Of a DNA stretch of 64,000 bases, positions 1,720-43,314 are shown one piece after another (within the stretch, counting starts at the first letter, position 1; the number at the start of each line of letters is the position of its first letter). The notes under the pieces were generated by a model. It did no database searches. It was not told the origin of the DNA and saw only the letters and a list, made by a program, of their open reading frames with translations. Location: assembly GCA_964510655.1 (NCBI GenBank), contig CAZEAY010000001.1, positions 164,944 through 228,943 of the forward strand, written 5' to 3'. Both the position numbers and the translations under genes were made by a program. The DNA is from an uncultured Candidatus Saccharibacteria bacterium (lineage in GTDB: Bacteria; Patescibacteriota; Minisyncoccia; Phycocordibacterales; XYD1-FULL-46-19).

Positions 1720-1789
1720 TAAAATAAATTACGAACTACTGCTTACGAATAATTTTGGTTATTCTTAATTTTTATTTCGAATTTATCTT

Positions 1790-14686: not shown

Positions 14687-14798
14687 TTTCTTATCTAAAA
14701 TTTTGACAAATAGTATTATGGATAGTGATTAATTCCAATATTTAAAAAAACAGACCCCTTTGCTGAAGCATTGGGGTCTGAAGAAGGTTCAGTGGTGG

Positions 14799-15437
14799 TC
14801 ATTTGGTGCCGAACACACGGTCTCCTGCATCTCCCAGACCAGGGAGAATGTAGGCCTGTTCGTTCAGTTTGCGATCAATGGTTGCAGCAATGATCTGAAC
14901 AGAGGGATAAGTGCTTTGAATCTCCTTGATTCCCTCAGGCGCTGCGATAATGCAGAGGAAGGTGATTTTTTTGCACCCCCATTCTGCTACTTGCGAGATC
15001 GCGCTCTTGGCTGAGCCGCCGGTAGCCAGCATGATGTCGAAAATCAGCGAGTGATGATTATCGAGCACCCGTTCGACTGTCGGTTGTGGATAGTAGCGTT
15101 GGGGTTGGTGTCCATTGGCATCATCACGGAACATGCCGAGATGATACACTGGGGATTCTGGGAAGAGGATTCTTGCTGGTGGAATCATTTCCATTCCCGC
15201 ACGCATGATTGGTATCAGGGCGATGTTTTCCGCTACCCGATACCCATCTGTCACCTCCAGAGGTGTTTCCACCTGTCCAGTTTGGATCTCGATATAGCGC
15301 AGAGCTTCGAAAAGTAACGGGACGCTGATTTCGCGGATCAGATGGGCAAAACGGTCAGAGGGCGTGTCTTTGTTTCGCAGTGCGGTCAGCATGAGTTGAA
15401 TTGCCCTGTGCCCAGAGAGATTAATCACGCGATTCAT
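14799..15437 (-). CDS. upp: uracil phosphoribosyltransferase (GC-rich relative to neighbours)
   Basis: FDIMLATGGSA (like DPMLATGGS), ILPGLGDAGDRVFGTK (like IPGLGDAGDKIFGTK), PIMRAGMEM; GGAAGGAG SD upstream. Confidence 0.9.
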   Translation of the reverse strand: MNRVINLSGHRAIQLMLTALRNKDTPSDRFAHLIREISVPLLFEALRYIEIQTGQVETPLEVTDGYRVAENIALIPIMRAGMEMIPPARILFPESPVYHLGMFRDDANGHQPQRYYPQPTVERVLDNHHSLIFDIMLATGGSAKSAISQVAEWGCKKITFLCIIAAPEGIKEIQSTYPSVQIIAATIDRKLNEQAYILPGLGDAGDRVFGTK

Positions 15438-15601: not shown

Positions 15602-16177
15602 ATGGACCAACTAGACGGCATTAAGCCACGAAAAAACTTCAATGTTTTGAAATGGCTTCTAATTATTAGTATTGTTATTGTTTTGAACCTGTTTTTTAAT
15701 TTTGCGATTATGTCGGTTTATCCGGCTCCTAAATATGAAGATTTTTGTAAAGCTGAACAGGTAAACGTTCAACCGGTCACTAAAGAAGCTTGTGTGGTCA
15801 TTGGTGGGCAGTGGAATGAATCATCTTCGGTGGAAAAAGTTGTTCCTGAAAGAGCCAGTGAACCACAAAAACTCCAAACCAATAGTTATTGTGATACCTC
15901 TTTTACTTGTCGGAAAAACTTTGAAGACGCTAATAATACTTATCAAAGAAATGTTTTTGTTGCCCTGATTGTCTTAGGTGTTATTTCTCTGATTGGCGGA
16001 TTTGTCTTGGCTTCTGTTTCTGTGGTTTCTCTTGGCCTCTCTTTTGGCGGTGTCTTATCCCTAGTAATTGCTTCAATGCGTTACTGGTCAGCGATGAATG
16101 AATATATTAGAGTGATCATTTTGGGAATTGCTCTGATTGTTCTGATCTGGATCGGCATGAAAAAATTTAAGGACTAG
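15602..16177 (+). CDS. hypothetical membrane protein
   Basis: N-terminal TM, Cys-containing extracytoplasmic region, C-terminal TM helices. Confidence 0.45.
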   Translation: MDQLDGIKPRKNFNVLKWLLIISIVIVLNLFFNFAIMSVYPAPKYEDFCKAEQVNVQPVTKEACVVIGGQWNESSSVEKVVPERASEPQKLQTNSYCDTSFTCRKNFEDANNTYQRNVFVALIVLGVISLIGGFVLASVSVVSLGLSFGGVLSLVIASMRYWSAMNEYIRVIILGIALIVLIWIGMKKFKD

Positions 16178-16370: not shown

Positions 16371-19241
16371 ATGAAAAAATACGATCCAAAGAAGATTGAG
16401 GGTAAGTGGCAGAAGGTTTGGGATAAATCTGGCATTTACCAGGCTAAAGATTTTTCTAAAAAACCCAAGTGGTATTCTTTGATCGAGTTTCCTTATCCTT
16501 CTGGTGATGGTCTTCATACTGGCCATATTCGGAGTAATACCGCAATGGATATTATCTCGCGTAAACGGCGTATGGAGGGCTACAACGTCCTTTATCCTAT
16601 TGGTTGGGATGCTTTTGGGTTACCAACAGAAAATTACGCTATTAAAACAGGTATCCATCCGGTGAAGGTAACGAAAAAAAATACTGATATTTTTCGTAAG
16701 CAACTTAAATCGGTAGGCTTTTCTTTTGACTGGAAACGCGAAATAAATACTAGTGATCCTAATTACTACAAATGGACTCAGTGGATTTTTTTGCAATTAT
16801 TCAAAAAGGGGCTGGCTTATAAACAAAAAACTTTAATCAACTGGTGCCCAAAAGATAAGACTGGACTGGCTAATGAGGAGGTGGTCAATGGTTGTTGTGA
16901 ACGCTGTGGAACCGAGGTGGTCAAAAAAGAAAAAGAACAGTGGATGTTGGCTATCACTAAATATGCGGATCGCCTTGATAAAGATTTAGATAAGGTGGAC
17001 TATTTGCCCCAGATTAAAACCCAACAACGTAATTGGATTGGTCGCTCTGAAGGAGCGGAGATAAAATTCAAAATTCAAGAGGTAAAAGGCCAAAGTGAAG
17101 GTCAAAATAGAAAAGTTGAACACGAAATTTCGGTTTTTACTACTCGTGCTGATACGTTGTTTGGGGTAACTTATGTTGTTTTGGCGCCAGAACATGAATT
17201 GGTTAATAATTTAAAGTTGGAAATTAAAAATTGGGAAGAAGTAAGTAACTATATTAAAAAGGTTAGCAAGGAAAGTGACACCGAGCGCACAGCGGAAAAT
17301 AGAGAGAAGACTGGTGTCAGGTTGGAGGGTATTACCGCCATTAATCCCGCCAATCAGGAAGAGGTACCGGTTTTTATTGCCGACTATGTTTTAGCTTCTT
17401 ATGGCACAGGAGCGGTAATGGCTGTACCGGCCCACGATGAACGAGATTGGGCTTTTGCAAAAAAATATAATTTGCCAATTAAAGAAGTTATCATTCCAGA
17501 GCGAATTGATAAGAGAAATCCACCGGTGGCTGGCAAAAAAGAAGTCGAAAGACAAAATGTTCATGCCATTGTTTACAATCCGCAGACTAAAAAATACCTC
17601 TGTCTTAATTGGAAAAAATATAATTGGAAAACTTTCCCAATGGGGGGAGTGGAAAAGGGTGAAAATGTTGTGGAAGCAGCTAGGCGTGAAGTTTTGGAGG
17701 AGACTGGCTATTCCGATTTAAAACTTGTCAGAGTTCTTGGCGGACAGGTAAAAGCTGAATATTTTGCTGCTCATAAAGACCAAAATCGAGTGGCTTATAC
17801 GAGTGCTGTTTATTTTGAATTAAAAAGTGAACAAAGAGAATCGGTGACTAAGACCGAAGAAGAGATGTATGATCTTGTGTGGTCGGATTGGAATGACATT
17901 ACGGTTGACAAAATGACTCACGCGGAAATGGATGTCTGGTTGGAACGATTAGAAAATGAAGAGAGATCATTTACTGATTATGGTATTTTGATTAACTCTG
18001 GACAATTTAACAAACTTAGCAGTGAACAAGCTAAAAAAGAAATCACTAAATTTGTTAAAGGAAAAATTGTCACCAAGTATAAATTACGTGATTGGGTTTT
18101 TTCTCGTCAGCGTTATTGGGGTGAACCAATTCCTCTGGTTTATTGTGAAAAAGACGGATGGGTGGCGGTACCAGAAAAAGAACTGCCGGTTGTTTTACCT
18201 AATGTAAAAAATTATCAGCCGTCTGATGAGGGGGAATCCCCACTGTCTCGTGATAAAAAATGGGTAAATACCACCTGTCCAACTTGTGGCGGTAAGGCGA
18301 CGAGAGAAACTGACACCATGCCAAACTGGGCCGGATCATCTTGGTATTCTTTGCGCTATATCGATCCAACTAATAAAAAGAGTTTGGCTGATGTGAAAAA
18401 ATTAAAATATTGGCAACCAGTAGATTGGTATAATGGTGGAGCTGAACATATTACCCTACACCTCCTTTATTCTCGTTTTTGGAGTAAGTTTTTATATGAT
18501 CTGGGTATGTCTCCAGCCGACGAACCTTATCTAAAAAGAACTACCCATGGGATGATTTTGGGGGCGGGAGGAATTAAAATGTCAAAATCTAAAGGTAATG
18601 TGGTAAATCCAGACACGACCGTAAAGACTTACGGGGCGGATACTCTGCGTGTTTATGAAATGTTTATGGGTCCTTTTGATCAGTCTATTGCTTGGAGTAC
18701 TGAAAGTATTATTGGTTCTCGCCGATTTTTAGATAAGGTTTGGAATATTGGCCAAAAAACCACCAAAATTAAACCAACAGAGGAATTTGAGATTTTGACC
18801 AACAAAACAATTAAAAAGGTAGGGGAAGATATTGAGGTCATGGGTTTCAATACGGCCATTTCTGCGATGATGATGTGGGCTAACGAAGCTGACAAGCTGG
18901 ACCAGGTTCCCATTTCTTCACTTTTGGATTTTCTCAAAGTTTTAGCTCCTTTTGCCCCTCATTTAGCCGAAGAGTTGTGGGCGAGTTTGGGTAACAAAAA
19001 AACCATTCACTTGGAAAAGTGGCCTATTTACGATGAAACTAAATTAAAAGATAAGACGGTAACAATTGTGGTGCAGATCAATGGTAAAGTTCGCGATTCT
19101 TTTGAAACAGAAGCGGGGATTAGTCAGTCAGACATGGAGGAAAAGGTCTTAGTAAGAGAGGTTGTAAAAAAATGGATGGAAGGTCAAACCGTTCGTAAAA
19201 TCATCTATGTTCCAGATAAGTTAGTGAATATTGTTTTATAA
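16371..19241 (+). CDS. leuS: leucyl-tRNA synthetase with an inserted Nudix hydrolase domain (about residues 378-536, nt 17502-17978)
   Basis: HTGHIRSNTAMD (HIGH), TTRADTLFGVTY, GTGAVMAVPAHDERDWAFAKKYNLPIK, KLRDWVFSRQRYWGEP, KMSKSKGN; insert contains a perfect Nudix box GGVEKGENVVEAARREVLEETGY (17643-17711). Confidence 0.95.
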   Translation: MKKYDPKKIEGKWQKVWDKSGIYQAKDFSKKPKWYSLIEFPYPSGDGLHTGHIRSNTAMDIISRKRRMEGYNVLYPIGWDAFGLPTENYAIKTGIHPVKVTKKNTDIFRKQLKSVGFSFDWKREINTSDPNYYKWTQWIFLQLFKKGLAYKQKTLINWCPKDKTGLANEEVVNGCCERCGTEVVKKEKEQWMLAITKYADRLDKDLDKVDYLPQIKTQQRNWIGRSEGAEIKFKIQEVKGQSEGQNRKVEHEISVFTTRADTLFGVTYVVLAPEHELVNNLKLEIKNWEEVSNYIKKVSKESDTERTAENREKTGVRLEGITAINPANQEEVPVFIADYVLASYGTGAVMAVPAHDERDWAFAKKYNLPIKEVIIPERIDKRNPPVAGKKEVERQNVHAIVYNPQTKKYLCLNWKKYNWKTFPMGGVEKGENVVEAARREVLEETGYSDLKLVRVLGGQVKAEYFAAHKDQNRVAYTSAVYFELKSEQRESVTKTEEEMYDLVWSDWNDITVDKMTHAEMDVWLERLENEERSFTDYGILINSGQFNKLSSEQAKKEITKFVKGKIVTKYKLRDWVFSRQRYWGEPIPLVYCEKDGWVAVPEKELPVVLPNVKNYQPSDEGESPLSRDKKWVNTTCPTCGGKATRETDTMPNWAGSSWYSLRYIDPTNKKSLADVKKLKYWQPVDWYNGGAEHITLHLLYSRFWSKFLYDLGMSPADEPYLKRTTHGMILGAGGIKMSKSKGNVVNPDTTVKTYGADTLRVYEMFMGPFDQSIAWSTESIIGSRRFLDKVWNIGQKTTKIKPTEEFEILTNKTIKKVGEDIEVMGFNTAISAMMMWANEADKLDQVPISSLLDFLKVLAPFAPHLAEELWASLGNKKTIHLEKWPIYDETKLKDKTVTIVVQINGKVRDSFETEAGISQSDMEEKVLVREVVKKWMEGQTVRKIIYVPDKLVNIVL

Positions 19242-19405: not shown

Positions 19406-20440
19406 ATGGCTAAAGAAAATTTGTCGTTTAAACCCAAGGATGCGATCAAAAAACTTTTGTCTCCTCTCTCTGATCGAGCAAGAGATATTATCACCAAACG
19501 CTACGGTCTGGGTAAAAACTCTGTCCGAATGACTCTAGAGGCTATTGGTGGTGAATATAAGATTACTCGCGAACGGGTTCGCCAGATTGAAAATTTTGCC
19601 ATCAATACTATAAAAAAATCTGAACACTATCAAAAATCTGATCTCTATTTTAATGAAATAAAGACTTTGATGGATGATTTTGGTGGTGTGGTACATGAGT
19701 CAGAATTTTTAGAATCTATTTCTAAAGATAAGGCAACTCAGAATCATATCCATTTTATGTTGGTTCTCTCTGATGCCTTTTTTAAACTGCGAGAAGATGA
19801 AGAATTTCATCATCGCTGGACCACTAACCGTGAATTGGCCTCTAAGGTACACAACTCGATCAAGGACCTTTGCCAAAACTTTACGGAAAATGATTTAGTA
19901 TCAGAACAAGAATTAATCACTCGTTTCTTGGGTGAATTAAAAGAAATTGTTGATGATGATAAGACCCGCGCTTTTGCTAAGAAATGGCTGGCGATTTCTA
20001 AAAATATTGGTCAAAATCCCTTGGGTGAGTGGGGGTTAGTAAAATCTCCAAATGTAAAAATGCGTGGTATTAGAGACTATGCTTACTTAGTCATTCGTCA
20101 AAATGGTTCACCAATGCACTTTGTTGAAGTGGCTAAAGCGATTTCCACTACTTTTGGTAAAAAGGCTCATCCCGCTACTTGCCACAATGAATTAATTAAA
20201 GATAAGCGTTTTGTTTTGGTTGGTCGCGGTCTTTATGCCTTGGCTGAGTGGGGATACACCAAAGGTATCGTCGCCGATGTTATTCGTACTCTACTAAAGA
20301 AAGAAGGACCACTAACTCGAGAAGAAATTGTTGGAAAAGTATTAAAGGAACGTCACGTTAAAGAAAATACTATTATTGTAAACCTTCAAAATCCAAAGTA
20401 TTTCCGTAAGGAGAAGGGTGGGAAATATAGTATTGTTTAA
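19406..20440 (+). CDS. DNA-binding protein: N-terminal sigma-70 region-4-like HTH, C-terminal HARE-HTH-like domain
   Basis: ITKRYGLGKNSVRMTLEAIGGEYKITRERVRQIENFAI resembles sigma70 region 4.2; C-terminus YAYLVIRQNGSPMHFVEVAKAI...GLYALAEWGY resembles HARE-HTH. Confidence 0.5.
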   Translation: MAKENLSFKPKDAIKKLLSPLSDRARDIITKRYGLGKNSVRMTLEAIGGEYKITRERVRQIENFAINTIKKSEHYQKSDLYFNEIKTLMDDFGGVVHESEFLESISKDKATQNHIHFMLVLSDAFFKLREDEEFHHRWTTNRELASKVHNSIKDLCQNFTENDLVSEQELITRFLGELKEIVDDDKTRAFAKKWLAISKNIGQNPLGEWGLVKSPNVKMRGIRDYAYLVIRQNGSPMHFVEVAKAISTTFGKKAHPATCHNELIKDKRFVLVGRGLYALAEWGYTKGIVADVIRTLLKKEGPLTREEIVGKVLKERHVKENTIIVNLQNPKYFRKEKGGKYSIV

Positions 20441-25421: not shown

Positions 25422-25452
25422 TTAAAAATTACGAATTACTAATTATAAATTA

Positions 25453-34681: not shown

Positions 34682-34683
34682 AG

Positions 34684-34800
34684 ATAAACATACAAATATA
34701 CGAATTTTACAAATCTACGAATGGCTACGAATGAATACATAGAGAAACGCATTTATTCGCAGCCATTCGTACCATTCGCATCATTTGTAGATTAGCATAT
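34684..34800. repeat. intergenic inverted-repeat element, copy A (MITE-like or structured RNA)
   Basis: aaacatacaaatatacgaattttacaaatctacgaatggctacgaat ... cattcgtaccattcgcatcatttgtagat; 45/47 identical to 42108-42154. Confidence 0.7.
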
Positions 34801-34808
34801 TAACTTTT

Positions 34809-35162
34809 ATGAAACACCATTCAAAAATCAGAAAATTAGGACGAACAAAAAGTGTCAGAAAAGCCCTGATCCGATCATTGGCCGAGGCTTTGATTTTGAG
34901 TGGTAAAATCAAAACAACCGAAGCTAAAGCCAAAGAATTACGACCTTTTATTGAAAAACTTATCACCAAAGGTAAAAAGGGTGATTTAGCCGCCCGCCGA
35001 GTCGCTATTTCTCGCTTAATTGGTGTGGAATTGGTCGCTAAATTGTTTAATGAGATTGCCCCTAAGTTTACTGATCGCAACGGCGGTTACACTCGTATTA
35101 TAAAATTACCGGCCCGCGGTGGAGACGGCAGTAAGATGGCGATTATTGAATTTGTTGCATAA
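34809..35162 (+). CDS. rplQ: 50S ribosomal protein L17
   Basis: [29 protein letters not shown]... Confidence 0.9.
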
Positions 35163-40188: not shown

Positions 40189-42105
40189 ATGGCAAAAATT
40201 CTTGGTATTGATTTAGGGACAACAAACTCCGCAATGGCTTATGTAGAAGGTGGTGAGCCAAAAATTGTGGAAAACAGTGAAGGTAATCGCACCACACCAT
40301 CAATTGTGGCCATTTCTAAGGCGGGTGAGCGCTTGGTGGGCCTTTTGGCAAAGCGTCAGGCTATCACCAACCCGCAAAACACCATCTATGGCGTCAAACG
40401 CATGATGGGGCACTCTTTCAACGATCCCAACGTTCAAAAAGATAAAGATTCTGTTCCTTTTGCAATTGAAGCCTCTGAAGACGGCGGGGTAAAAGTAAAA
40501 ATTTCTGATAAATCTTATCGTCCCGAAGAAATCTCGGCGATGATTCTTCAAAAACTGAAGCATGATGCCGAAGCTAAGTTGGGTGAAAAAATAGAAGAAG
40601 CGGTAATTACCGTTCCGGCCTATTTCGACGACTCTCAACGCAAAGCTACTAAAGATGCGGGTGAAATTGCCGGTTTCAAAGTTCGTCGTATTATCAACGA
40701 ACCAACCGCCGCCGCTTTAGCTTACGGTTTCAACAAGAAAAAAGATGAAAAAATTGCCGTCTACGACTTTGGTGGCGGAACCTTTGATATTTCCATTTTG
40801 GAAATCACTGGTGGCTCCGACGGTGAGCAATCGATCGAAGTAAAAGCGACCGATGGTGACTCACACATGGGCGGTGAAGATATCGACCAAGATATTATTC
40901 ACTTTATTGGTGACAAATTCTCTAAAGAAAACGGTATCGATATTCTAAAAGATGAATTAGCTCTACAACGACTAAAAGAAGCCGCCGAAAAAGCTAAACA
41001 CGAATTGTCTACTGTCTTAGAAACCGAAATAAATATTCCTTTTATCACTTCCAACCAAGACGGTCCAAAACACCTCTTGATCAAATTTACCCGCGCTGAA
41101 TTAGAAAACTTAGCTAACAAATATATCGAACGCTCTATCGAAATCAGTAAACGAGCTGTCGATGCTTCTGGATTTAAAATCGGTGATATAAATGAAGTGA
41201 TTTTAGTTGGTGGTCAAACTCGTATGCCAGCTATCCAAGAAGCGGTTAAAAAACTGTTTGGCAAAGAACCAAATCGCTCCATCAACCCCGATGAAGTAGT
41301 TGCTATCGGCGCTGCGATTCAAGGAGGTATTTTCCAAGGAGATGTAAAAGATGTTTTGCTTTTGGATGTCACCCCATTGTCTTTGGGTATCGAAACTTAT
41401 GGCGGTATTGCCACCAAACTGCTGGAAAAAAATACCACCATCCCAACCACTCGCTCTCAAGTCTTTTCCACCGCGGCCGATAACCAGACATCCGTCGAAA
41501 TTCACATCGTCCAGGGTGAACGCGAAATGGCTGCCGACAACAAAACTCTAGGTCGGTTTATTCTAGACGGCATTCCACCTTCACCTCGTGGCTTACCACA
41601 AATTGAAGTCTCTTTTGACTTGGATGCTAATGGAATTCTGTCTGTCAAAGCTAAGGACAAGCAGACAAACAAAGAACAATCGATTCGTATTGAGGCTAAG
41701 ACTAGTCTTTCAAAAGAAGATATCGAGCGAATGAAAAAAGATGCCGAACTTCACGCTGATGAAGATAAAAAGAAAAAAGAAATGGTAGAAATTCGCATTG
41801 GAGCTGATCAAATGATTTATACCGCCGAAAAATCACTCAAAGATGCTGAGGGCAAAATTTCTGACGAATTGAAGAATGCCGTTCAAGCTAAAATTGACGA
41901 AGTGAAAAAAGTGAAAGACGGCGAGGATCAAGAAGCAATTAAAAAGGCTTCCAGTGAACTATCGTCCGAAATGATGAAGATTGGCGAAGAAATGCAGAAA
42001 CAGGCTCAAGCCAACCCAGAGTCCAAACCAGAAGGTGAAGCCAAATCAGATGAAGGTAAAGACAAGCCAGAAGAAGGCACCGTGCACGAGGCAGAAGTGA
42101 AATAG
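40189..42105 (+). CDS. dnaK: chaperone DnaK (Hsp70)
   Basis: [41 protein letters not shown]. Confidence 0.97.
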
Positions 42106-42232
42106 TTAAACATACAAATATACGAATTATACTAATCTACGAATGGCTACGAATTCGTCATTCCTTGAGTACGTAAAGTAAAATAAAAAACATTTGTAAT
42201 CATTCGTATTATTCGCATCATTCGCTGATTGG
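42106..42232. repeat. intergenic inverted-repeat element, copy B
   Basis: aaacatacaaatatacgaattatactaatctacgaatggctacgaat ... aatcattcgtattattcgcatcattcgctgatt; same architecture as 34684-34800. Confidence 0.7.
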
Positions 42233-42243
42233 TATATTTATTT

Positions 42244-43314
42244 ATGAAAAATTACTACGAAATCCTTGGACTACAGAAAGGTGCTTCCAAAGAGGAGGTT
42301 AAAAAGGCTTTCCATAAATTGGCGCACCAATATCACCCCGACAAAAAAGGGGGAAATGAGGCCAAATTCAAAGAAATCAACGAAGCCTACCAAATCCTCT
42401 CCGACGACCAGAAACGTGCCCAGTATGACAATTTTGGGTCTTACAACGGCTCTGCTGGGGCTGGTGGAGGCTTTAATGCTGGCGGTTTTGACTTTTCCGG
42501 TTTTACCGGTGGCAATGGCCAGGGTTTTGAGTTTGATTTAGGTGATATCTTTGGTGACATTTTTGGTGGTCGAGGAGGTGCTCGCGGTCAAAAACGCGGT
42601 CGGGATATTTCGGTAGATATTCAAATTTCATTTGCCGACGCCATCTTCGGAATTGAACGAAAAATTGCAATTAATAAAATTAGTAGCTGTGACACCTGTA
42701 CTGGTACTGGCGCCGAACCGCATACCTCACTAAAAACTTGTCCAACTTGTAAGGGTGAAGGGGCAATCAGAGAAAACAAACGCACTATGTTTGGAACTTT
42801 TGCTTCCACTCGCGAATGTATTACCTGCCACGGTCAAGGACAAATCCCTGAGAAAAAATGTCACACTTGTGGTGGTGACGGAGTACTTAAGAAAAATGAA
42901 GAAATCAAAGTCACTATTCCAGCCGGAATTGAAAGCGGCCAAATGATCAGACTTTCTGGTCGGGGCGAAGCGATTCCTCATGGCTTACCAGGTGATTTGT
43001 ATGTAAAAATTTATGTCGAAAGAGACGCTGTTTTCCATCGCAACAATCAAAATATTGAGATGGATCTGGAAATCAAACTGACAGAAGGACTATTGGGCGG
43101 TGAGAGGGAGATAAAAACACTAGACGGCAATTTAAAACTGAAAATTCCGGCTGGCATTTCTTCTGGCGAAATTTTACGTGTTCGGGATAAGGGTGTCCCT
43201 AGTCGGGGAGGCAAACGCGGAGATTTAATGATAAAAGTAATTATCAAAACTCCCGCCAAACTTTCCAAACAAGCCAGAAAATTAATCGATGAATTAAAGG
43301 AAGAGGGGTTATAA
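42244..43314 (+). CDS. dnaJ: chaperone DnaJ
   Basis: J-domain [34 protein letters not shown] region, four CxxCxGxG repeats; ATG at 42244 (track start is an upstream TTG). Confidence 0.95.

What the first reader, a model, noticed from the sequence alone, without database searches (positions are those of the whole stretch)
34684..34800. Roughly 120-bp inverted-repeat element present immediately after rpoA and after dnaK
Copy A (34684-34800) and copy B (42106-42232) share a nearly identical 47-nt 5' arm: aaacatacaaatatacgaatt[t/a]tac[a/t]aatctacgaatggctacgaat. Each also has a 3' arm that is its imperfect reverse complement (cattcgtaccattcgcatcatt... in A, cattcgtattattcgcatcatt... in B), so each copy can fold into a long stem-loop. 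Both start within 3 nt of the stop codon of a highly expressed gene and end at the SD of the next gene (rplQ, dnaJ). Shorter related motifs, AAATTACGAAyTACT, sit right after the stops of uvrC (1726-1754) and mnmA (25425-25451). Candidates are a MITE-like mobile repeat, an RNA processing or attenuation structure separating differentially expressed cistrons, or a protein-binding site.
Basis: seen in the sequence. Interest (0 to 1): 0.6.

Follow-up and report, generated by a model that had tools for sequence, protein, structure and literature searches.

The report
Gene-less heptamer-array hairpin mobile element
The two ~130-bp inverted repeats after rpoA and dnaK are real, related copies of a small insertion made of arrays of the 7-base unit TACGAAT, and elsewhere in the same bacterial groups the same arrays flank a small nuclease gene of unknown function (GxxExxY), so they look like gene-less relatives of an apparently undescribed selfish element.

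Summary
Copy A (34682-34808) and copy B (42106-42243) are 80% identical over their whole length. The similarity stops at the rpoA/dnaK stop codons and at the rplQ/dnaJ start codons. Each arm is an array of five to six TACNAAT heptamers, so the arms are not plain palindromes. The rpoA-rplQ spacer is 14 nt in a relative with 93% RpoA identity and 5 nt in one with 79%, so A is a recent gain or loss.

The same stereotyped array, c-TACGAATTACGAAT-n3-TACGAAT-n-TACGAAT, and its inverse occur in more than 80 loci of Patescibacteria and Bacteroidota. Their outer ends lie a few bases from gene boundaries. In a sample chosen by protein similarity alone, 50 of 66 GxxExxY (PF13366, PD-(D/E)XK) nuclease genes carry these arrays, inverted, on both sides. 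None of 53 control genes does. Heptamers match between arms at 95% of positions and spacers at 33%, which points to recognition of the unit rather than selection for a continuous stem.

Best reading: A and B are gene-less, MITE-like members of a nuclease-cassette family, co-transcribed inside core operons. That the nuclease binds the heptamers and moves the element is inferred, not shown. I found no Rfam family and no paper describing it.

The parts
34682..34808 (+). Copy A: the whole rpoA-rplQ spacer, a gene-less heptamer-array hairpin element
   Evidence: Homologous to copy B from the stop codon to the ATG. The spacer is 14 nt in L140 and 5 nt in L143.
34691..34732 (+). Copy A, 5' array: TACAAAT, TACGAAT, TACAAAT, TACGAAT, TACGAAT, starting at 34691, 34699, 34708, 34716 and 34726
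34733..34754 (+). Copy A, loop (22 nt)
   Evidence: Partly alignable with the loop of B.
34755..34805 (+). Copy A, 3' array: ATTCGCA, ATTCGTA, ATTCGCA, ATTTGTA, then degenerate ATTAGCA and ATTAACT. It ends 3 nt before the rplQ ATG at 34809.
42106..42243 (+). Copy B: the whole dnaK-dnaJ spacer, a more decayed copy of the same element
   Evidence: The dnaJ ATG is at 42244.
42113..42154 (+). Copy B, 5' array: TACAAAT, TACGAAT, TACTAAT, TACGAAT, TACGAAT
42155..42191 (+). Copy B, loop (37 nt). Relative to A it carries a 12-nt insertion just after the 5' array.
42192..42242 (+). Copy B, 3' array: ATTTGTA, ATTCGTA, ATTCGCA, ATTCGCT, ATTGGTA, then degenerate ATTTATT
1730..1750 (+). Possible solo-array remnant 11 nt after the uvrC-like stop: TACGAAC..TACGAAT
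   Evidence: Weak: two-heptamer clusters are not enriched over shuffles.
25430..25450 (+). Possible solo outer-end remnant 8 nt after the mnmA stop: TACGAAT-TACTAAT-TATAAAT, contiguous like the doubled outer end of the canonical array
   Evidence: The L140 mnmA-alaS spacer lacks it.

Best explanation
Copies A and B are two diverged copies of a small, gene-less, MITE-like insertion. It belongs to a family that is widespread in Patescibacteria (the window's own phylum) and Bacteroidota.

The full-length member of this family is a cassette of about 460 bp, laid out as follows:
- the host gene's stop codon, then about 4 nt;
- an array of 3-5 TACNAAT heptamers, canonically C-TACGAATTACGAAT-n3/4-TACGAAT-n-TACGAAT;
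- a ~126-aa GxxExxY PD-(D/E)XK nuclease gene;
- the inverted array, then a few nt;
- the next host gene's start codon.

The cassette sits between co-transcribed host genes, in their orientation, so it is probably expressed by read-through.

The heptamers, not the stem, are the conserved unit. I infer that they are recognition sites for a protein, most plausibly the element's own nuclease, which would bind several units on each arm and promote copying or excision. No target-site duplication was seen.

The window's copies lack the gene and would depend on a nuclease encoded elsewhere, or they are inert relics. B is visibly decaying. In the cell they are carried inside the rpoA-rplQ and dnaK-dnaJ transcripts as interrupted hairpins whose bases touch the stop and start codons. 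Any effect on mRNA processing or on translational coupling would be secondary and is untested.

Shown: family membership by architecture, insertion polymorphism, linkage to the nuclease gene, and heptamer-specific conservation. Inferred: who binds the heptamers and how the element moves.
For: - A and B are homologous over their whole length but not beyond it.
- The rpoA-rplQ site is empty in relatives with 93% and 79% RpoA identity.
82 of these carry the same non-periodic spacing (7|8, 10|11, 8) and 24 carry hairpin pairs. They are overwhelmingly from Patescibacteria and Bacteroidota.
- The same scan of viral contigs returned only regular period-8/9/10 tandem repeats, with no hairpin pairs and no GxxExxY genes. 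This serves as a negative control.
- 152 of 177 arrays are intergenic. The outer end lies within 15 nt of an ORF boundary in 80 of 129 cases, next to diverse housekeeping genes.
- All 5 GxxExxY genes in the array-selected loci are flanked by inverted arrays.
- In loci selected by protein similarity only, 50 of 66 non-redundant GxxExxY genes have at least 2 heptamers on both sides in the inverted configuration, and 40 of 66 have at least 3. None of 53 control genes does. Three further look-ups agree.
- Heptamer positions are complementary between arms at 95% and spacers at 33%.
- Unit variants (TACGAAA, TACAAAT, TACTAAT, TACGGAT) match on both arms of an element. The nearest protein relative shares the same unit in 29 of 38 cases, against 11.1 expected by permutation.
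- The nuclease gene is co-oriented with its upstream host gene in 55 of 56 cases. The median distance from host stop to first heptamer is 4 nt.
- Three copies in L042 share arms and loop, so the gene-less form itself multiplies.
Against: - No GxxExxY gene or relic lies in the 64-kb window or in three relatives' loci. Whether the source genome encodes one is unknown.
- The window's arrays have spacing 8, 9, 8, 10 with five units, not the canonical 7, 10, 8. Similar five-unit arms do flank a GxxExxY gene in L202.
- The loops of 26 short hairpins show no coding remnants. Inter-arm distances are bimodal (11-92 vs 386-632 nt), so descent of the short form by internal deletion is not demonstrated.
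- No target-site duplication and no target consensus beyond a C next to the outer heptamer.
- No PD-(D/E)XK-only transposition mechanism is known (my own knowledge).
- The protein-selected sample covers one GxxExxY subfamily (47-100% identity to a query that itself came from an array-selected locus). One relative, L133, has same-orientation ATTCGTG repeats instead.
- The link between protein and unit could reflect co-inheritance rather than recognition.
Confidence: 0.7

Rival explanations
1. Landing-pad variant. The gene-less hairpins are the primary element, or a site that the host tolerates. The GxxExxY gene is a homing-type nuclease gene that moves from filled to empty hairpins. It would cut between the arrays and be copied in by recombination, using the ~35-nt arrays as homology arms. 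Under this reading A and B are empty sites rather than deletion derivatives.
For: - Inter-arm distances are bimodal with no intermediates, and short loops carry no coding remnants.
- Arms are near-identical among copies within a genome (L042 and window A/B).
- The nuclease gene fills the loop almost exactly: the array ends about 1.5 nt before the ORF and the stop codon lies at the 3' array.
Against: - Loops of short hairpins are not conserved between genomes or even between A and B, so there is no obvious common cleavage site.
- It does not explain how empty hairpins reach new loci, although L042 shows that they do multiply.
- It has the same lack of biochemical evidence as the main model.
Confidence: 0.2
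2. Host RNA element. The hairpins are structures in the polycistronic mRNA that were selected to separate differently expressed cistrons (rpoA|rplQ, dnaK|dnaJ), through RNase III-type processing, protection of the 3' end, or attenuation.
For: - Both copies lie inside operons, on the sense strand, between a highly expressed gene and the next one.
- Copy A and the canonical elements fold strongly (z -5.5 to -12.9).
- The dnaK-dnaJ spacer also holds array-type hairpins built of other units in two relatives.
Against: - The rpoA-rplQ site is empty in the closest relatives.
- Copy B folds no better than shuffles.
- Spacers between heptamers are complementary only at chance level, and arm differences in A give A-C mismatches rather than compensated pairs.
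- There is no T-run or terminator signature and no Rfam family.
- The same arrays flank a nuclease gene and abut unrelated genes in both orientations.
Confidence: 0.1
3. Host operator. The heptamer arrays are binding sites on double-stranded DNA for a chromosomal regulator or a nucleoid protein that acts on the adjacent genes.
For: - Short units in several copies are conserved while the spacers are not, which is typical of protein sites.
- Many solo arrays sit directly upstream of start codons.
Against: - The arrays sit between co-transcribed genes and directly after stop codons as often as before starts (43 vs 37).
- The neighbouring genes have no common function.
- Presence or absence varies among close relatives.
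- The unit spacing of 7, 10, 8 is not helically phased.
- The association with one selfish-looking gene is very strong.
Confidence: 0.05
4. Chance low-complexity or simple tandem repeat with no common origin.
For: - TACGAAT alone is only about twofold enriched in the window: 17 occurrences against 8.9 expected.
- Two- and three-heptamer clusters are at shuffle level.
Against: - The composite pattern gives 0 matches in 100 shuffles.
- A and B are 80% identical over 125 nt.
- The stereotyped non-periodic architecture recurs in 82 loci. True tandem repeats in viral contigs look different.
Confidence: 0.01

Closest known systems
REP/REPIN elements and their RAYT (TnpA-REP, HUH Y1) transposase genes
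   Same: - A single small nuclease-type gene is flanked by inverted repeats.
- Many gene-less hairpin doublets of about 100 nt are dispersed in intergenic spaces, often just after stop codons inside operons.
- There is no target-site duplication.
- The repeat sequence is tied to its gene's lineage.
   Different: - The gene here is a minimal PD-(D/E)XK (GxxExxY, PF13366) nuclease, not an HUH/Y1 enzyme.
- The arms are arrays of 3-5 spaced heptamers rather than a single palindrome with a 5' GTAG.
- Almost the same unit is shared across phyla.
- The gene-bearing form is itself present in many copies and loci rather than one per genome.
Classical MITEs (for example Correia elements of Neisseria, ERIC, RUP)
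   Same: - Small (about 130 bp), with terminal inverted repeats.
- Present in several copies, with presence or absence varying between relatives.
- Co-transcribed with the neighbouring genes.
   Different: - No target-site duplication was detected.
- The related full-length element encodes no DDE transposase.
- The inverted repeats are internally repetitive heptamer arrays.
Free-standing homing endonuclease genes (phage seg/mob genes; the PD-(D/E)XK homing enzyme I-Ssp6803I)
   Same: - A small nuclease ORF is wedged between conserved genes, co-oriented with them and with no room for its own promoter.
- Its presence is patchy among relatives.
   Different: - Homing genes lack flanking inverted arrays and stay at one cognate locus.
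- Here the same ends occur at many unrelated loci and also without the gene.
Integron gene cassettes and attC sites
   Same: - A promoterless ORF is followed by an imperfect inverted repeat built of paired 7-bp core sites.
- The repeat starts at the stop codon and ends just before the next ORF.
   Different: - The units are TACNAAT, not RYYYAAC/GTTRRRY.
- The arrays lie on both sides of the ORF.
- The cassettes are scattered in housekeeping operons rather than arrayed next to an integrase.
Cyanobacterial STRR heptanucleotide repeats (recalled from memory, not tested here)
   Same: Heptamer repeats located in intergenic, co-transcribed regions.
   Different: STRR are contiguous period-7 tandem runs of other sequences. 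No inverted-arm architecture or nuclease linkage is established for them.

Membership tests
Heptamer-array / GxxExxY cassette family (defined here) | Two inverted arrays of at least 3 TACNAAT heptamers, period 7-11 | tested here: met
   A has 5 + 4 units within one mismatch (two more degenerate outer units in the 3' arm). B has 5 + 4 (two more degenerate units).
Heptamer-array / GxxExxY cassette family (defined here) | Canonical unit spacing of 7|8, 10|11, 8, with a doubled outer heptamer preceded by C | tested here: not met
   The window arms have spacing 8, 9, 8, 10 with five units and no C before the first unit. A comparable five-unit arm (8, 11, 8, 10) flanks a GxxExxY gene in L202. The window copies are therefore a variant, not the canonical form.
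Heptamer-array / GxxExxY cassette family (defined here) | Fills a short spacer between co-oriented genes, with outer ends a few nt from the stop and start codons | tested here: met
   A lies between the rpoA stop and the rplQ ATG. B lies between the dnaK stop and the dnaJ ATG. The family-wide median from host stop to first heptamer is 4 nt.
Heptamer-array / GxxExxY cassette family (defined here) | A GxxExxY (TIGR04256 / PF13366) gene between the arms | tested here: not met
   The loops are 22 and 37 nt. There is no GxxExxY ORF or relic anywhere in the window. A and B are gene-less forms, like 24 of the 120 genome loci.
Heptamer-array / GxxExxY cassette family (defined here) | Presence or absence differs between close relatives | tested here: met
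   The rpoA-rplQ spacer is 127 nt here, 14 nt in L140 and 5 nt in L143.
Classical MITE | Terminal inverted repeats, small size, several copies | tested here: met
Classical MITE | Target-site duplication flanking the element | tested here: inconclusive
   None is visible at A, at B or at the three L042 copies. The outer flanks show no consensus beyond C at -1. The exact ends cannot be fixed because the empty-site spacers have diverged.
Classical MITE | Ends shared with an autonomous element that encodes a transposase | tested here: inconclusive
   The ends are shared with a cassette that encodes a PD-(D/E)XK nuclease, and this family is not a known transposase.
REP/REPIN-RAYT | A REP palindrome with a conserved 5' tetranucleotide, and a RAYT (Y1 HUH) gene flanked by REPs | tested here: not met
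   The arms are heptamer arrays. The gene found between such arms is GxxExxY, and no other cargo recurs. The whole source genome could not be searched for a RAYT.
Intrinsic (Rho-independent) terminator | G+C-rich stem followed by a T-run | tested here: not met
   No terminator-like site within 34682-34808 or 42106-42243.
Any Rfam family | Score at or above the family's gathering threshold | tested here: not met
   Only two tRNAs in the window at gathering thresholds. At E <= 1 the only matches are miRNA-hairpin models far below threshold. Nothing matches a full cassette.
Integron attC | R''/L'' and L'/R' core sites (RYYYAAC / GTTRRRY), cassette array next to intI | tested here: not met
   The units are TACNAAT/ATTNGTA. 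The neighbours are housekeeping genes.

The most novel reading that the evidence does not exclude
The GxxExxY / PDDEXK_3 proteins are a large family listed as function unknown. They may be the mobility enzymes of a previously unrecognised class of ultra-compact (~460 bp) bacterial mobile cassettes. On this reading the ends are arrays of heptamer recognition units, the cassettes insert between co-transcribed genes of core operons, and they spawn gene-less hairpin derivatives such as the two in this window. That would be a transposition or homing mechanism carried out by a minimal Cas4-like PD-(D/E)XK nuclease alone.
Probability: 0.4. Interest if true: 0.85.

Novelty: new variant of a known kind. 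Interest (0 to 1): 0.68.

Why it matters
- It gives a first concrete functional context for PF13366/TIGR04256. This nuclease family is very common in Patescibacteria and Bacteroidota and is listed as 'unknown' in the 2012 PD-(D/E)XK survey (PMC3424549). The library searches found only passing mentions of it since.
- It explains a class of odd long spacers inside ribosomal-protein, RNA-polymerase and chaperone operons in the otherwise very compact genomes of the candidate phyla radiation.
- The linkage makes a testable prediction: the nuclease binds TACNAAT arrays. The test can be done in cultivable Bacteroidota.
- If the enzyme turns out to move DNA by itself, it would be a new type of minimal mobile element. 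Its short modular recognition code would be a possible tool.
- For annotation, these hairpins should not be called terminators or riboswitch-like leaders.

Tried and rejected
- Rfam at gathering thresholds and at permissive E-values found nothing relevant.
- The terminator/promoter scan found no terminator in either element. One promoter-like match lies in B's loop, at chance level.
- I looked for a recurrent neighbouring gene around arrays by all-against-all BLAST of 190 neighbours. Only diverse housekeeping genes came up.
- I looked for other cargo between inverted arrays. Apart from two solo arrays that bracket a rhomboid gene, only GxxExxY appeared.
- The search for related loci with the 5-sequence GxxExxY alignment failed because no stretch was conserved enough. 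I replaced it with a single-protein query.
- The viral-contig scan returned only coding or simple tandem repeats, which is useful only as a negative control.
- A test for relics of the GxxExxY C-terminus in short loops was not significant: 2 of 26 against 0.6 expected.
- The PDB sequence search found no homologue. PADLOC gave only marginal hits to nuclease domains, and PHROGs gave none.
- Literature searches for the doubled heptamer, for TACGAAT plus 'heptamer', for GxxExxY, for PDDEXK_3 and for MITEs in Patescibacteria found nothing on this element.
- The source genome could not be named: the cluster look-up returned no accession or name. Its complete sequence could not be searched.

Full report
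**1. The observation.**

- The repeat finder reports the 5' arms as 51 nt at 94% identity (34682-34732 vs 42104-42154). It reports the 3' arms as 52 nt at 75% (34755-34806 vs 42192-42243).
- A pairwise alignment shows homology across the whole spacer, loops included: 100 of 125 aligned positions are identical, with 17 gap columns. B carries a 12-nt insertion after its 5' arm.
- The coding flanks are unrelated. The two copies are therefore not part of a larger duplication.
- The arms are not simple palindromes. They are arrays of the heptamer TACGAAT and one-mismatch variants.
  - A: TACAAAT-a-TACGAAT-tt-TACAAAT-c-TACGAAT-ggc-TACGAAT, a 22-nt loop, then ATTCGCA-gcc-ATTCGTA-cc-ATTCGCA-tc-ATTTGTA-g-ATTAGCA-t-ATTAACT-ttt-ATG.
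  - B has the same plan with more mismatches.
- A composite pattern matches only these two sites, with none in 100 shuffles.
- Pfam confirms the neighbouring genes as L17, Hsp70 and DnaJ, and also MnmA, AlaRS and a UvrC-like protein. RpoA is confirmed by precomputed hits.
- As RNA, A folds well (-32.3 kcal/mol, z = -5.5). B is no better than shuffles (z = -1.5).
- Neither copy has a terminator-like tail, and no Rfam family matches.

**2. The element is an insertion.**

RpoA homologues place the window in Patescibacteria, class Paceibacteria. The nearest named relatives are Candidatus Vogelbacteria and Paceibacterota. I fetched syntenic loci from three relatives.
- The rpoA-rplQ spacer is 127 nt here. 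It is 14 nt in L140 (93% RpoA identity) and 5 nt in L143 (79%). In L141 (87%) it is 68 nt of different sequence, and only the last dozen bases resemble the window.
- The mnmA-alaS spacer of L140 also lacks the TACGAAT-TACTAAT motif seen at 25430.
- The dnaK-dnaJ spacer is occupied in all three relatives, but by different things.
  - L141 has inverted arrays of TACGAGT-type units around a long loop.
  - L143 has an analogous ~100-nt hairpin built from a different unit (AAAGTCN / GACTTTN). That hairpin recurs at least five times within 14 kb.
  - L140 has GTCATCC..GGATC-type repeats.
- Array-type hairpins at gene junctions are therefore a general and fast-changing feature of this clade.

**3. 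The same architecture is widespread.**

I scanned one genome per species for three spaced heptamers.
- 82 loci carry arrays with the same non-periodic spacing. Heptamer starts lie at 0, 7(8), 17/18 and 25/26, that is C-TACGAATTACGAAT-n3/4-TACGAAT-n-TACGAAT.
- 24 loci have a plus-orientation array followed within 120 nt by its inverse.
- By record title, the loci are almost all Patescibacteria of many classes and Bacteroidota. A few MAGs are labelled Gammaproteobacteria, and I did not verify those labels.
- The identical scan of viral contigs also hit the limit. It returned only regular period-8/9/10 tandem repeats, many of them evidently coding, with no hairpin pairs. That is a useful negative control for the pattern.
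- 152 of 177 arrays are intergenic. The outer (doubled) end lies within 15 nt of an ORF boundary in 80 of 129 cases, next to starts (37) about as often as stops (43).
- The neighbouring genes are diverse housekeeping genes with no recurrent family.
- Canonical short elements fold at -30 to -62 kcal/mol (z -5.8 to -12.9), with an internal loop at the 3-4-nt spacer.
- Three copies within 8 kb of L042 share arms and loop, so the gene-less form itself multiplies.

**4. Link to a nuclease gene.**

One pair of arrays, in L078, enclosed a 141-aa ORF.
- A phmmer search with that ORF found five relatives in the 120 loci. All five are TIGR04256 GxxExxY proteins, and all five are flanked by inverted heptamer arrays.
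- Contexts of three homologues picked from a protein search agree. P0029 sits between rpsG and fusA with canonical arrays. P0079 is flanked by TACTAAT/ATTAGTA arrays. P0111, from a WOR-1 genome, has ATTCGTG-type repeats in the same orientation on both sides, which is an exception.
- A metagenome scan selected by protein similarity alone gave 80 loci. Among 66 non-redundant genes with both flanks available:
  - 50 have at least 2 heptamers upstream in plus orientation and at least 2 downstream in minus orientation;
  - 40 have at least 3 on both sides;
  - 1 shows the reverse configuration;
  - none of 53 other genes in the same loci qualifies.
- The layout is extremely compact. The median distance from host stop to first heptamer is 4 nt. 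The array ends about 1.5 nt before the GxxExxY ORF, and its stop codon lies at the 3' array.
- The gene is co-oriented with the upstream host gene in 55 of 56 cases and with the downstream gene in 31 of 37.

**5. What is conserved.**

Across 41 distinct canonical arm pairs, heptamer positions are complementary between arms at 95%. Spacer positions are complementary at only 33% (45% if G-U pairs are counted). Spacer lengths agree in 27 of 41 pairs.
- Variant units are shared by both arms of an element: TACGAAA/TTTCGTA, TACAAAT/ATTTGTA, TACTAAT/ATTAGTA and TACGGAT/ATCCGTA.
- The nearest GxxExxY relative below 90% identity has the same unit in 29 of 38 cases, against 11.1 expected by permutation (maximum 20). 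Gene and arms therefore travel together.
- The selected entity is the heptamer rather than a continuous helix. This is what recognition by a protein predicts.
- The base just outside the outermost heptamer is C in 63% of 180 flanks. Beyond it there is no target consensus, and I saw no target-site duplication.

**6. The protein.**

An AlphaFold2 model built from 48 homologues is confident (pLDDT 92.4).
- E31, D70, E80 and K82 are invariant, so the active site is maintained.
- There is no sequence homologue in the PDB, no PHROG match, and only marginal PADLOC hits to nuclease domains.
- The 2012 survey of the superfamily lists PDDEXK_3 as function unknown, with multiple transfers (PMC3424549).
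- Searches for the repeat and for the family names found no description of this element.

**7. Interpretation.**

The best-supported reading is that A and B are gene-less, MITE-like members of this cassette family. A is fairly intact and B is decaying. Both are carried passively within the rpoA-rplQ and dnaK-dnaJ transcripts.

That the GxxExxY nuclease binds the heptamers and mediates movement is an inference. It rests on linkage, on unit-level conservation and on the intact active site. It has not been shown.

Points against, or left open:
- No GxxExxY gene or relic lies in this window or in the relatives' loci.
- The window's arms are a five-unit variant with spacing 8, 9, 8, 10.
- Short loops carry no coding relics, and inter-arm distances are bimodal. 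The short forms may therefore be 'empty' partners rather than deletion products, which is the landing-pad variant.
- The protein-selected sample covers only one subfamily.

A host RNA-processing role cannot be excluded as a secondary effect, but several results argue against it as the origin: the empty orthologous sites, B's weak fold and the non-complementary spacers. One speculative idea is worth testing. Because the stem base touches both the host stop codon and the next start codon, folding would keep them adjacent and so limit the harm the insertion does to translational coupling.

**8. Verdict.**

The family resembles REPIN-RAYT systems and free-standing homing-nuclease genes in how it appears to work. 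It fails their membership tests: the enzyme is different, there is no REP palindrome and no target-site duplication. I rate it a new variant of a known kind. There is a substantial chance that it represents a new class of minimal mobile element.

Noticed in passing
L143:8665-8771, 14693-15079, 17776-17880, 18964-19171: A relative with 79% RpoA identity carries at least five copies of an analogous ~100-nt hairpin. Its arms are arrays of a different unit (AAAGTCN / GACTTTN, period ~9). The copies again fill spacers between stop and start codons (S13-S11, dnaK-dnaJ, after dnaJ). No associated gene was identified.
   Followed up: partly
L140:17640-17776; L141:9466-9705; L143:12186-12676, 15677-15882, 19538-19795; L114 ~6880: A second dispersed repeat family occurs in several intergenic regions of the relatives, sometimes inside the loop of an array hairpin. 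It consists of GTCATCC/GTCATTCC...GGGAATC/GGATC hairpins, for example gtcattcccgcgcaggcgggaatc.
   Followed up: no
window:16182-16279: Inverted arrays of GAATAAA/GAATAGA-type heptamers (period 7) flank a G+C hairpin with a T-run, just after the ORF ending at 16177. The layout is 'array - terminator - inverted array', built from another unit.
   Followed up: no
L133:1381-2030: In a WOR-1 genome the GxxExxY gene is flanked by ATTCGTG/ATTCGCG/AATTAGAG repeats in the same orientation on both sides, not inverted. This is an exception to the family's architecture.
   Followed up: no
L123:1453-1931 and L149:1446-1904: Two GxxExxY cassettes with different units (TACGAAT vs TACTAAT) sit at the same rpsG-fusA junction in different Patescibacteria. 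This is either an old insertion whose unit has drifted or a recurrent hot spot.
   Followed up: no
L141:3394-3461: The rpoA-rplQ spacer of the 87% relative holds a different 68-nt sequence. Its start resembles the L140 spacer and its last ~12 nt resemble the window's 3' end (tattaatttt-ATG). It may be a decayed or replaced element.
   Followed up: partly
L014, L017, L023, L042, L080, L102, L112, L117 (record titles): Several MAGs that carry canonical arrays are titled 'uncultured Gammaproteobacteria'. Their gene content and G+C make me suspect the labels are unreliable. The 3' arm in L112 closely resembles the window's (…ATTCGTAgattagcattatg…).
   Followed up: no
L225-L344 (viral contigs): Matches of the three-heptamer pattern in IMG/VR are period-9 (tripeptide-coding) or period-8/10/11 simple tandem repeats, many of them in giant-virus MAGs. 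They are unrelated to the hairpin family.
   Followed up: yes
window:25452-25500: Directly after the TACGAAT-TACTAAT-TATAAAT remnant downstream of mnmA there is a perfect hairpin with a T-run (atcatcactttgag…ctcaaagtgatgatttttg), which is a likely intrinsic terminator. The whole 211-nt spacer is replaced by 47 nt in L140.
   Followed up: partly
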